A stretch of 42,776 bases of DNA from a virus (lineage: Duplodnaviria > Heunggongvirae > Uroviricota > Caudoviricetes). The stretch is taken from IMG/VR virus record IMGVR_UViG_2874945390_000010, positions 1 through 42,776 of that record. The stretch is one strand, 5' to 3'. Of the stretch, positions 27,601 to 30,600 are shown one piece after another. A program made the position numbers. The first letter of the stretch is position 1; each line of letters begins with the position of its first letter.

Positions 27601-30600
27601 GCGGGTAAGGTAAAACCAAATCTATGAGCATCAGTCACCTCTTTTACCCAAGCACGCCAGTTGCAAAGGCGTGATCAAGAAAACGAAAAATTAAATCAAC
27701 CTGAGAACCATGCTTTTCTTCGAACGCCAGCGGATCCGCATGAAGCTCGTTGTGATGCTCCCGACACAGCGGTAGCGTGAAAATATCGTGAGATTTTGTC
27801 CCCATTCCGCCCTGACCATGACCAATCAGGTGATGGGGATCGTCGGCTGGCTTACCACAACACGCACACGGCTGTGTCTTCACCCAGCGTGTGTATTTCT
27901 CGTTAACCCAGCGGCGACGTTTAGGTCGTTTCATGAAAGATTCCGGAGACTCAGGATCAACGGCAATGCTGACCACCGTCTTTTCCTGTGGTGGGTTCTG
28001 TTGCTGGTGGGCGTGAGGCAGCGGCGCAAGATTTTTTGTGCGCTGTTTCAGTATGCTGGTGGCGGTCTGCTCTCCCGGTACGATGTCGCTTTCACGGTAC
28101 ATTGAGCGGATTTTTTCCGCACGCAACCCCAGCGAACGACGTAATACCGCTTCCGGTAGCGCGTCCGCCACCTGATTGCGGACCGCCCACCAGGATAATT
28201 CAGCCAGAGATAATTCACGCTCCTGCGTACCGCTTATTGCGTGACCGATGACGTCAATCATCCATGCTGACAGGTTTTGATGAGCAAGTTGCTCGAGTGA
28301 TTCGGATGTCTGGTCACGCAGCTGGTTGTCGCAGTGCCAGCACAACACCATTGCGCCGGTACCATAACGGTGAATGACGGTTTCGCTGTGATGATAATCG
28401 CCGTGTGGCCACTGGCAGGATTTAATATGGCGCAACAGCCAGTCAGACAATGCACCAGCACCACCAGCAGCACGAATCACCCGTGCGTTACTGAAAAACG
28501 GCAGCAATGTTTTGTCTTCCACCAGCGGCTGGCGAGCGGCAGGAACGACCCCGGACGGCAGATTACGCATGCTTTTCGGTTCCGGCTCCACCAGTAACCG
28601 GGTATTGTGGAATACCGGCATGGATTCACGGCCCGGCTTAACGATCACCAGCCCGAGTTCCGGTACCAGAACAGGTCGAAGTAATACCCGCACGTTACCT
28701 CCAGATGCGTTGCTGGAATGTGCGGGACGGACGCGGTGGGCGTTCGGAGTAAGGCAATCTGACTGAGATTATCCAGTGACGGTAGTCGAGGCTAAGGGCT
28801 TTTTTAACCTCGTATCCGCGCCTGCGGTAACACTGAATTATCCATTCAGCCTGCTCTTCAGTGCATGGTGGATGCTGGAACCAGTCCGATTTGAATGCAT
28901 GAAAACGCCGTCCGCACCTGCTGGCAAAGACGGCAGAATCATCAGAATTGTGTAATTTGGTATCGTGCGCCATCGGTTGTCTCTGCTGGCGCAGCAGGTG
29001 CCAATTGTTCAGGCTGGCGTATAAAGTATAAATAAACTGGTTCCAGTGTAAAGCCCCTACATTAATGGAATAAAAGTCAAACAACAGATTGTTGGGATAA
29101 ACACAACGCTTATTATTAAAAGCGATTAGATAAATTAAATTTTAATGTTATGCAATTTTACCAGATCACCATAACATCTCGTTTGAAACCACCGAAACAA
29201 CAACCATATCAATATTGATTATGTTAAAGTGAGTAAATATGGAAAACAACAAATCTGCACATTACGCTCCTTTTTTATCTGTGATACTTTTTGTTTTATG
29301 CTGTGTGTGGGCATTATTTTTATAAAAATATTTACAGATAAAATAAACCCGCCGAAGCGGGTTAAGTGCGGGTGCATTGAGGATGCCTGACACATCAGAG
29401 GTGGCGAGGGATTTCTCCCTCGCCGGGTCTCTTACTCCTCAGGTTCGTAAACTGTGAAGACAGCGACCTCCGTCTGGCCGGTTCGGATTCGTACCTCGCA
29501 GAGGTCTTTCCTCGTTACCAGTGCCGTCACTATGACGGTTAAACAGATGACGATCAGGGCGATTAACATCGCCTTTTGCTGCTTCATAGCCTGCTTCTCC
29601 TTGACCTTTCGGTCCGTAAGAGGCTAATCTCTATGTGTCGCATAGATATGGCCTCAGATTAATGTTAAACGTCTTGCAGGACGCGTAATGTTACCTGGGG
29701 CTTTTCTCTATCTGCCGTTGGTGTTCATGCCCGAGGCAGATAGCCTCAAGCACCCGCAGTCATTCTACTTAACTAAGATTTCCCCGCAAACCGTTTTTGT
29801 CCAGCACAATAAATATCCAACTAAACCAATGGAGTTCGCTGTATTTACCGCCAGTATTCAATGCACATGACCGCCATGAACACCCCTAAAAAAATGGCAT
29901 TTATATATCCAAATATTAATATCAAAACATCAACTTTTTCCATATACCTTGCTGTGAAGATGATGGGCATACATGATACGAACAACCAGAACGCAACAAA
30001 CAAAAACTGCAATGCGTTTTTCATTATTCCTCCTACAATCAATGTGCAATTACATTTAAACACACCTCAATTTGGCCGGACATATAAATATCTAAACTAG
30101 AAAAAATCACTTACATAGCGTTACAAACTCTTTAGTCTAAAGGTTCATCGTAAAACATTCCCCATACTTATCAGTCCGTTCCGCGCCAGGTAGCTTATTG
30201 CCTTATCTGGCAACCTATAATCAGGTTTCCGCTTTTTCAGTTGGCTGGTCGTTTAACCGACATAGTTAACCCATTAATCTAAATAGCTGCGCGGAATAGT
30301 AGATCACTTTGAGGGAACTTAGCCCGGATTGTGCGATCTGATCAATCGCCAAATCAAAACAAATCACCAACCGGACTGAGCAATGCCGATCATAGCACCA
30401 ATTTCCCGTGACGAACGACGCCTGATGCAGAAAGCCATCCATAAAACACACGATAAAAATTATGCCCGCAGACTGACTGCCATGCTGATGCTGCACCGGG
30501 GCGACCGTGTCAGCGACGTTGCCAGAACGCTCTGCTGCGCCCGTTCCTCTGTTGGACGCTGGATTAACTGGTTCACGCAGTCGGGTGTTGAGGGACTGAA

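What the first reader, a model, noticed from the sequence alone, without database searches (positions are those of the whole stretch)
29330..29800. hok/sok-like type I toxin-antitoxin locus in the nin-like region
A 51-aa Hok-family toxin is followed by a hairpin/T-tract terminator and preceded by about 200 nt of leader with several inverted repeats, where an overlapping mok frame and an antisense Sok RNA would be expected. It could stabilise the prophage or act in abortive infection.
Basis: partly seen in the sequence, partly recalled or inferred. Interest (0 to 1): 0.4.

Follow-up and report, generated by a model that had tools for sequence, protein, structure and literature searches.

The report
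Intact hokD-type hok/mok/sok toxin–antitoxin cassette

Summary
A 51-aa Hok/Gef toxin gene lies on the minus strand (29587..29432), with a 168-nt leader before it and a hairpin/T-tract terminator after it (29363..29346).

The leader gives a full-length Rfam 'sok' (RF01794) match. Every sequence element of the plasmid R1 hok/sok model can be placed:
- the hok promoter -10
- the tac, ucb, dcb and fbi boxes
- the mok Shine-Dalgarno and ATG
- an antisense Sok gene (+ strand, 29637 to about 29705-29711) with its own promoter and terminator hairpin

The 551-bp locus is 100% identical in at least 17 complete E. coli genomes, where the ORF is annotated hokD. It is 91% identical to hokW/mokW/sokW of Stx2 phage 933W/Sp5, which has been tested experimentally. 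K-12 hokD keeps only the part from 16 nt upstream of the ATG, because relBE replaced its leader.

One small deviation: mok here has 19 codons and stops at a TGA overlapping the hok ATG (ATGA). It is not the 69-70-codon overlapping or in-frame mok of relatives. This allele is common (777 records) and should still couple translation.

Expression, toxicity and biological role were not testable. Verdict: interpretation supported, already known, low interest.

The parts
29762..29789 (-). hok promoter: -35-like TTGCGG (29789-29784), 16-nt spacer, -10 TAGAAT (29767-29762)
   Evidence: Read from the sequence. A -10 hexamer (TAGAAT/TATAAT/TACAAT) is kept at the same distance from the conserved GGGTGC 5' end in most of the 20 related loci, although the DNA further upstream is unrelated. 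The consensus scan did not call it because the -35 matches only 3 of 6.
29340..29755 (-). full-length hok mRNA (predicted 5' end G29755; 3' end after the terminator T-tract)
   Evidence: The Rfam model starts at 29755. The 5' end GGGTGCTTGAGG is invariant in 18 of 18 aligned relatives. MFE -170.1 kcal/mol, z=-7.4. The consensus structure has 98% of cells paired and 17 pairs with compensatory changes, against 8.7+/-1.5 in shuffles and at most 6 in slid controls.
29744..29755 (-). tac (translational activator element), GGGUGCUUGAGG
   Evidence: Pairs with fbi in the MFE fold and in the consensus fold. The 12 pairs are kept in 18 of 18 relatives; 10 never vary and one shows G-C/G-U variation. In the Rfam consensus structure it pairs with ucb instead.
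29697..29703 (-). ucb / anti-SD box, AAGCCCC
   Evidence: GCCCCA pairs with the mok SD segment UGAGGC in the full-length fold (helix 3; one pair covaries A-U to G-C in 7 sequences). The alternative pairing with tac appears in the Rfam structure line. Box definitions are from PMC9841398.
29584..29656 (-). mok: SD GAGG (29656-29653), ATG 29643, 19 codons (MRHIEISLLRTERSRRSRL), stop TGA 29586-29584 overlapping the hok ATG (ATGA)
   Evidence: Translation. The ATG is homologous to the annotated mokC and mokW starts. The start register relative to the hok ATG is -56 here, -57 (in frame, 69-70 codons) or -58 (overlapping, 55-68 codons) in relatives.
29620..29625 (-). dcb box, AGCCUC (pairs with the mok SD in the processed mRNA)
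   Evidence: The helix GAGGC...GCCUC is present in the Rfam consensus structure matched by the window. Definition from PMC9841398.
29432..29602 (-). hok: SD AAGGAG (29602-29597), ATG 29587, 51 codons, stop TAA 29434-29432
   Evidence: Differs from K-12 HokD only at V46 (A in K-12). The hok start region is paired with the downstream coding sequence in the consensus fold (helix 9).
29370..29382 (-). fbi (fold-back inhibitory element), CCUCAAUGCACCC
   Evidence: Complementary to tac with one bulged U. Paired in the MFE fold and in 18 of 18 relatives.
29336..29363 (-). intrinsic terminator of hok mRNA (7-bp G+C-rich stem, loop of 4, then TATTTTATCT)
   Evidence: The stem covaries among relatives: helix 16, 4 of 5 pairs with changes on both sides.
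29601..29630 (+). Sok promoter: -35 TTGACC (29601-29606), 18-nt spacer, -10 TAATCT (29625-29630)
   Evidence: Positions. The -10 is homologous to TAACCT of sokW. In PMC8621323 primers YO-421/422 changed that hexamer to GAGCCG and sokW antitoxin activity was lost (mapped). It fell below the threshold of the consensus scan because the -10 matches only 3 of 6.
29637..29711 (+). Sok antisense RNA (predicted, about 69-75 nt): 13-nt 5' tail complementary to the first 7 nt of mok and the spacer upstream of its ATG, long hairpin 29650-29701 whose 5' arm is complementary to the mok SD, U-rich tail CUUUUCUCU
   Evidence: The ends are transferred from annotated sokW (933W) and sokC (K-12) through the alignment. 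Fold -23.5 to -26.1 kcal/mol, z=-3.2 to -4.1, with the same architecture as sokW and sokC. Hairpin pairs covary (cols 61/101 and 65/96, A-U to G-C). Expression was not tested.

Best explanation
The region is a complete hok/mok/sok type I toxin-antitoxin cassette of the hokD/hokW type, carried as a moron in the nin-like region of a lambdoid prophage.

Inferred mechanism, by homology with plasmid R1 hok/sok and Sp5 hokW-sokW:

1. A weak constitutive promoter (TAGAAT) makes a stable mRNA of about 416 nt. Its 5' end (tac) is clamped to the 3' fbi box, and its mok Shine-Dalgarno is masked by ucb. The full-length RNA is therefore neither translated nor bound by Sok.
2. Slow 3' trimming removes fbi. 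tac then captures ucb, and the mok start region becomes accessible.
3. While the cassette is transcribed, a short-lived antisense Sok RNA of about 70 nt, made from the opposite strand, pairs with the mok start region, and the duplex is destroyed.
4. If Sok synthesis stops, ribosomes translate the 19-codon mok, run through the hok Shine-Dalgarno and terminate on the UGA that overlaps the hok AUG. This opens the hok start and hands it over.
5. The 51-aa Hok peptide inserts into the inner membrane and kills or lyses the cell.

Sok synthesis could stop through loss of the element, host transcription shut-off by an infecting phage, or prophage induction.

Shown here: the presence, placement, conservation and covariation of all sequence elements. 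Inferred: transcription, processing, Sok instability, toxicity and the biological trigger.
For: - Toxin: Pfam HOK_GEF 2.6e-22; PHROG 251.
- Leader: full-length Rfam RF01794 match, 100.8 bits.
- tac-fbi closure in the MFE fold, z=-7.4; kept in 18 of 18 relatives.
- Whole-mRNA consensus structure: 98% of cells paired, 17 compensatory pairs against 8.7+/-1.5 in shuffles and at most 6 in slid controls.
- mok ATG, Sok 5' end and Sok 3' end map onto the annotated mokW/sokW and mokC/sokC.
- The Sok -10 coincides with the hexamer whose mutation abolished sokW antitoxin activity (PMC8621323).
- The Sok candidate folds like sokW and sokC.
- The locus is 100% identical in at least 17 complete E. coli genomes, where it is annotated hokD, and 90.9% identical to 933W hokW/mokW/sokW.
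- The 86-nt mok segment is at least 99% identical in 777 records.
- In R1, mok must be translated at least up to the hok SD, but not beyond the hok start (PMC9841398). The 19-codon mok meets that requirement.
- HokW is toxic, and sokW counteracts it (PMC8621323).
Against: - No expression data exist for this copy.
- The consensus promoter scan called neither promoter. The Sok -10 matches 3 of 6 and the hok -35 matches 3 of 6.
- The MFE fold of a 3'-trimmed mRNA gave a local 5' hairpin rather than the tac-ucb stem.
- The short mok differs from every experimentally studied mok.
- Native chromosomal hokA, hokB and hokC loci did not mediate post-segregational killing, as summarised in bioRxiv 10.1101/2025.08.07.668861.
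- NCBIfam Hok models score below their curated cut-offs (45.1 against 73 bits).
Confidence: 0.85

Rival explanations
1. The copy is structurally complete but crippled. The indels that put mok in the -56 register are a frameshift, so mok-hok coupling is weakened and little or no Hok is ever made. The locus would be a tolerated relic, like the inactivated K-12 hok loci.
For: The annotated or studied moks (mokW, mokC, mokB, R1 mok) have 55-70 codons and overlap or extend hok, whereas this one stops at the hok ATG. Relative to -57 relatives, the change is 2 nt missing after ATGC plus 1 nt extra before the hok SD. Chromosomal hok loci are often inactive.
Against: [quoted passage not shown] Here the ribosome passes the hok SD and stops on AUGA. 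The identical 86-nt segment occurs in 777 records. The -56 register arose independently in hokC-type loci of E. ruysiae and E. whittamii (L017, L018). All other elements are intact.
Confidence: 0.1
2. Only the toxin mRNA survives and the antisense partner is silent, because the Sok promoter is too weak. Hok would be held in check solely by mRNA folding, or the toxin gene would be read through from phage early transcripts.
For: The consensus scan found no sigma-70 promoter on either strand. The Sok -10 TAATCT matches the consensus at 3 of 6 positions.
Against: The -35 TTGACC matches 5 of 6 with an 18-nt spacer. TAATCT keeps the T1, A2 and T6 positions. It is closer to consensus than the TAACCT of sokW, which is functional, detected by Northern blot, and lost on mutation of that hexamer (PMC8621323). 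The terminator hairpin and U-tract are conserved and covary.
Confidence: 0.05
3. Alternative biological role, with the same molecular mechanism. Rather than stabilising the prophage or aborting infections, the cassette is a lysis helper. Sok disappears on prophage induction, Hok permeabilises the inner membrane, and phage release rises.
For: This was shown for the 91%-identical hokW-sokW of Sp5. Mitomycin C removed sokW, HokW was made in a RecA-dependent way, and pfu fell by half without the locus (PMC8621323).
Against: hokW sits in a different part of its phage, next to ead/Ea22-like genes, not in the nin region. The prophage here carries an IS630 insertion and may not be inducible. In other prophages the same slot holds an anti-phage gene (iteS) or relBE (K-12), which fits a defence or addiction role equally well.
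Confidence: 0.3

Closest known systems
hokW / mokW / sokW of Stx2 phage 933W (= Sakai prophage Sp5)
   Same: 90.9% nucleotide identity over 439 nt, covering promoter, leader, hok and fbi. Same 51-aa toxin length, same Sok position and hairpin including the 18-nt stem extension, and the same -10 location. It is a lambdoid-phage moron. [quoted passage not shown]
   Different: mokW has 70 codons in frame with hokW (-57), against 19 codons (-56) here. The Hok C-terminus differs (FVDYESEK against FTVYEPEE). The 3' terminator differs. It is located next to ead/Ea22-like genes rather than in the nin region.
hokD (relF) of E. coli K-12, Qin prophage
   Same: Positional orthologue: hok lies upstream of the DUF968 (ydfU)-...-Q genes of a DicF-carrying lambdoid prophage. 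98.4% identity over 257 nt, from 16 nt upstream of the ATG through fbi and the terminator. The protein differs at one residue.
   Different: K-12 lacks everything upstream of window position ~29603: the hok promoter, tac, ucb, mok start, dcb, Sok gene and Sok -10. relB-relE occupy that place, and hokD is co-transcribed with them (PMC3598666). The window copy keeps the complete leader.
hokC (gef) / mokC / sokC of E. coli K-12
   Same: The leader is collinear, with identical tac and the same mok ATG position and Sok 5' end. Roughly 77% identity overall.
   Different: The hokC-type Sok hairpin lacks the 18-nt extension. mokC has 69 codons in frame. The K-12 copy has lost fbi to IS186. It is chromosomal, not prophage-borne.
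hok / mok / sok (parB) of plasmid R1
   Same: Same architecture and the same inferred folding pathway (tac/fbi, ucb, dcb, mok coupling, cis-antisense Sok), as defined in PMC9841398.
   Different: The toxin is distantly related (HokW is 44% identical to R1 Hok, PMC8621323). R1 mok has 70 codons in the -1 frame. It is plasmid-borne and proven to mediate post-segregational killing. I did not align the R1 sequence here.

Membership tests
hok/sok (Hok/Gef) type I toxin-antitoxin family | Small (about 50 aa) Hok/Gef-family membrane toxin ORF | tested here: met
   Pfam PF01848 E=2.6e-22, 78.6 bits against a cut-off of 22. PHROG 251 E=2.8e-32. NCBIfam Hok subfamily hit is below its cut-off (45.1 against 73 bits).
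hok/sok (Hok/Gef) type I toxin-antitoxin family | Conserved, structured hok mRNA leader | tested here: met
   Rfam RF01794 matched over positions 1-157 of 157, 100.8 bits against a gathering score of 59. The hit is on the hok-sense strand and its last three positions are the hok AUG, so as matched here the model covers the leader, not the antisense strand.
hok/sok (Hok/Gef) type I toxin-antitoxin family | Long-range 5'-3' closure (tac-fbi) of the full-length mRNA | tested here: met
   12-bp tac-fbi helix in the MFE fold and in the consensus fold. 99.1% of cells are paired across 18 loci, but the helix is almost invariant, so covariation gives no independent support for this helix.
hok/sok (Hok/Gef) type I toxin-antitoxin family | mok leader ORF whose translation reaches the hok translation initiation region | tested here: met
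   ATG 29643 with a GAGG SD, homologous to the mokC and mokW starts. The ORF passes the hok SD and stops at a UGA overlapping the hok AUG. It is atypically short at 19 codons. The functional requirement is taken from PMC9841398.
hok/sok (Hok/Gef) type I toxin-antitoxin family | Cis-encoded antisense Sok gene with its own promoter and terminator, complementary to the mok start region | tested here: met
   TTGACC-18 nt-TAATCT, predicted start G29637, hairpin 29650-29701 and U-tract. Positions coincide with annotated sokW and sokC and with the mutationally defined sokW -10. This is sequence-level evidence only.
hok/sok (Hok/Gef) type I toxin-antitoxin family | Sok RNA is expressed and unstable; hok mRNA is stable and 3'-processed; the duplex is cleaved by RNase III | not testable with these tools
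   Needs Northern blots, rifampicin chase and RACE.
hok/sok (Hok/Gef) type I toxin-antitoxin family | Toxicity of the peptide and its neutralisation by Sok | not testable with these tools
   Shown for HokW/sokW, the closest tested relative, in PMC8621323. Not shown for this allele.
hokD (K-12 relF) orthologue | Near-identical toxin at the same prophage position | tested here: met
   50 of 51 residues identical. 98.4% nt identity over 257 nt. Same neighbours: the DUF968 gene, and DicF in the same prophage. RefSeq annotates the identical ORF as HokD.
hokD (K-12 relF) orthologue | relBE-hokD operon structure without mok and sok (the K-12 arrangement) | tested here: not met
   There is no relBE here. 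A complete hok/mok/sok leader occupies the place of relE.

The most novel reading that the evidence does not exclude
The 19-codon mok ending in AUGA may be a functional natural variant, in which termination-reinitiation replaces the long overlapping or in-frame mok. Related loci switch freely between three start registers (-56, -57, -58), which would make the Mok peptide sequence irrelevant and select only for ribosome transit across the hok SD. Any -56 shift meets a stop at that spot automatically, because hok begins AUG-A. This allele would be a ready-made natural test of the R1 coupling model in a prophage-borne, complete version of the truncated K-12 hokD.
Probability: 0.6. Interest if true: 0.25.

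Novelty: already known. Interest (0 to 1): 0.15.

Why it matters
It matters little beyond annotation. It shows that the hokD of many E. coli prophages is a complete hok/mok/sok cassette, whereas RefSeq annotates only the CDS and K-12 carries a leaderless copy fused to relBE. The mok and Sok features could be added to annotations. The short-mok allele offers a natural control for the rule that mok translation is needed only up to the hok start. The biological role of prophage-borne hok/sok remains open (maintenance, defence, or help with lysis), and this locus does not by itself resolve it.

Tried and rejected
- The consensus promoter scan of 29250-29950 found no sigma-70 site on either strand. 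I did not take this as absence. Both promoters fall just under its thresholds, and they sit at conserved, and for Sok mutationally validated, positions.
- Folding a 3'-trimmed mRNA (29755-29386) to reproduce the tac-ucb 'open' form gave a local 5' hairpin instead. The tac-ucb stem is supported only by the Rfam consensus structure and the literature.
- I considered that the Rfam 'sok' hit directly locates the Sok RNA. I rejected this because the hit is on the hok-sense strand and ends at the hok AUG, so it matches the leader.
- I considered that the nearby IS630 inactivates the locus, as IS elements do at K-12 hokA, hokC and hokE. I rejected this because the IS (~30282-31431) lies about 525 bp upstream of the hok promoter, in another gene.
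- NCBIfam gave only sub-threshold Hok hits.
- I did not align R1 hok/sok itself. Comparisons with R1 rest on Rfam and the literature.
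Full report
**1. Observation**

On the minus strand of 29330-29800 there is a 51-codon ORF at 29587..29432. It is a Hok/Gef toxin: Pfam PF01848 E=2.6e-22 and PHROG 251 'MokW-like host killing' E=2.8e-32. It is followed by the only terminator-like site in the area, AACCCGCTTCGGCGGGTT plus a T-tract at 29363..29346.

The Rfam family RF01794 ('sok') matches end to end at 29755..29585 on the same strand as hok, with 100.8 bits and E=7.7e-22. The model's last three positions are the hok AUG. What it matches is therefore the 168-nt hok leader, not the antisense strand.

**2. Anatomy**

Coordinates are, on the hok strand unless stated.

| Element | Sequence | Position |
|---|---|---|
| hok -10 | TAGAAT | 29767-29762 |
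| Predicted 5' end | G | 29755 |
| tac | GGGUGCUUGAGG | 29755-29744 |
| ucb / anti-SD | AAGCCCC | 29703-29697 |
| mok SD | GAGG | 29656-29653 |
| mok ATG | ATG | 29643 |
| dcb | AGCCUC | 29625-29620 |
| hok SD | AAGGAG | 29602-29597 |
| hok ATG | ATG | 29587 |
| fbi | CCUCAAUGCACCC | 29382-29370 |
| Terminator | stem-loop | 29363-29346 |
| Sok -35 (+ strand) | TTGACC | 29601-29606 |
| Sok -10 (+ strand) | TAATCT | 29625-29630 |

The two Sok hexamers are separated by 18 nt. Sok is predicted to start at G29637. It has a long hairpin at 29650-29701 and a CUUUUCUCU tail, giving an RNA of about 69-75 nt. The box names and their roles follow PMC9841398.

**3. Structure**

The 416-nt transcript folds at -170.1 kcal/mol (z=-7.4), with tac paired to fbi.

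I aligned it with 17 related loci from Escherichia, Shigella, Kluyvera and phages. The RNAalifold consensus has 105 pairs. Counted on the alignment:
- 98.0% of cells are standard pairs.
- 17 pairs show changes on both sides, against 8.7+/-1.5 in shuffles (0 of 500 reach 17) and at most 6 when partners are slid by 1-3 columns.

The consensus includes:
- the tac-fbi helix, which is kept everywhere but nearly invariant, so it gets no independent covariation support
- the ucb-mok SD helix
- a helix sequestering the hok start
- the Sok-target hairpin
- the terminator

The candidate Sok RNA folds like the annotated sokW and sokC. A 3'-trimmed mRNA did not give the tac-ucb stem as its MFE fold. That alternative pairing is seen only in the Rfam structure line.

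**4. Relatives**

- The 551-bp locus is 100% identical in at least 17 complete E. coli genomes. 2530 genomes have a place covering at least 80% of it. The ORF is annotated 'type I toxin-antitoxin system toxin HokD', and no mok or Sok is annotated under the match.
- It is 90.9% identical to the hokW/mokW/sokW locus of phage 933W. Through the alignment, the annotated sokW and sokC 5' ends both map to window 29637. Their 3' ends map to 29705 and 29711, and the mokW and mokC starts map to ATG 29643.
[quoted passage not shown] In that work the sokW promoter was inactivated with primers YO-421 and YO-422. Compared with the 933W sequence, these change the Sok-strand hexamer TAACCT to GAGCCG. The homologous hexamer in the window is TAATCT, which is closer to consensus.
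- Related cassettes also occur in ~90-140-kb E. coli plasmids, many predicted non-mobilizable, and in a phage P1 record.

**5. Relation to K-12 hokD**

Homology with K-12 begins 16 nt upstream of the hok ATG (window ~29603) and runs at 98.4% through fbi and the terminator. Upstream of that point K-12 has relE. There hokD (relF) is co-transcribed with relBE (PMC3598666). The flanking DUF968 gene (ydfU-like) is shared, and a DicF gene lies in the same prophage. The window therefore carries the complete form of the cassette, of which K-12 retains the toxin and its 3' part.

**6. The mok deviation**

The mok ATG is conserved, but its distance to the hok ATG varies among relatives:
- -57: in frame, 69-70 codons (mokW, mokC).
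- -58: overlapping -1 frame, 55-68 codons (mokB; phage-plasmid type).
- -56: the window, the MAG locus L016, and the hokC-type loci of E. ruysiae and E. whittamii.

In the -56 register the ORF is 19 codons long (MRHIEISLLRTERSRRSRL) and ends at the UGA inside AUGA of the hok start. This outcome is automatic, because hok begins AUG-AAG.

The exact 86-nt segment is present at 99% identity or more in 777 records, so it is a common allele rather than a private lesion. [quoted passage not shown] The short mok should therefore still couple. This is an inference, not a test.

**7. Context**

The window is a lambdoid prophage. From high to low coordinates it contains:
- integrase next to tRNA-Ser
- DicF
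- a CI/Cro-like pair, YdaT, a 358-aa ORF (33030-34106, no Pfam hit; relatives annotate this position as phage replisome organizer/primosomal protein), and DUF977
- an IS630 insertion at ~30282-31431, absent from the otherwise 99% identical L001
- the hok/sok cassette
- a 92-aa ORF of unknown function (PHROG 1212), then DUF968, RusA and Q
- tRNA-Met and the holin gene

'Nin-like region' is therefore correct. The cassette (GC about 0.5) is bracketed by AT-rich DNA (GC 0.30-0.36). In other prophages the same slot holds different cargo: relBE plus a truncated hok in K-12, an IS421, or the anti-phage peptidase gene iteS. In 933W the cassette sits elsewhere, next to ead/Ea22-like genes. All this is typical of a mobile moron.

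**8. Mechanism and role**

The best-supported mechanism is the R1-type pathway:
1. The folded full-length mRNA is inert.
2. 3' trimming triggers refolding.
3. Sok pairs with the mok start region and the duplex is degraded.
4. When Sok is lost, mok translation opens the hok start.
5. Hok inserts into the inner membrane.

The sequence elements are shown here; every dynamic step is inferred.

The biological role is open:
- Prophage addiction and phage exclusion are plausible. The R1 locus reduces T4 plating, as cited in PMC8621323.
- The only experiment on a close relative points to assistance of lysis on induction (PMC8621323).
- Native chromosomal hok loci failed to give post-segregational killing.

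**9. Verdict**

The feature is already known: it is annotated as hokD, detected by Rfam, and a close homologue has been characterised. Interest is low. The only mildly new points are that this common hokD allele is complete where K-12's is not, and that it carries a minimal mok ending on the hok start codon.

Noticed in passing
window 29023-29334 (ORF 29239-29325, + strand): A 312-bp AT-rich segment (GC about 0.30) lies between the hok terminator and the next gene. It is absent from close relatives (L009, phage Evi) but present and unannotated in 759 E. coli genomes. It carries a conserved 28-aa hydrophobic ORF (MENNKSAHYAPFLSVILFVLCCVWALFL) with a Shine-Dalgarno, convergent with hok. The ORF is intact in variants at 87-90% identity. 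No Pfam-independent family hit in NCBIfam or PHROGs. It may be an unannotated small membrane protein.
   Followed up: partly
L055 (E. coli 102651) 1059-1706; L054; L056; compare window 29335-29800: The slot next to that AT-rich segment holds different cargo in different prophages: hok (L056), an IS421 (L054), or the anti-phage S8 peptidase gene iteS (L055). In K-12 it holds relBE plus a truncated hokD. This looks like a variable moron or defence slot in the nin region of lambdoid prophages.
   Followed up: partly
window ~30282-31431: An IS630-family element (343-aa transposase ORF 30383-31414; terminal inverted repeats CTAAATAGCTGCGC...) is inserted relative to the otherwise 99% identical locus L001, in a gene about 525 bp upstream of the hok promoter.
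   Followed up: partly
window 29845-30063 (- strand): A 72-aa strongly hydrophobic ORF lies in AT-rich DNA just upstream of the hok promoter. No Pfam, NCBIfam or PHROG hit.
   Followed up: no
window 29451-29444 (- strand), hok codon Tyr47: The sequence UUUACGAA contains the UACG motif. [quoted passage not shown] The V46 (GUU) variant of this allele lies immediately 5' of the motif.
   Followed up: no
window 36521-36572 (+), 25869-26059 (-), 2631-2829 (-): Other Rfam hits in the prophage: DicF sRNA (76.7 bits), STnc100 (110.4 bits) next to a tRNA-Met gene, and IS009 (221.4 bits).
   Followed up: no
L007 (E. coli ECMA0423) and L040: These are degenerate hokD-type copies in the same genomes that also carry intact ones. 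L007 has a mutated tac (GACTGCATGTGG). L040 has a disrupted hok ORF.
   Followed up: no
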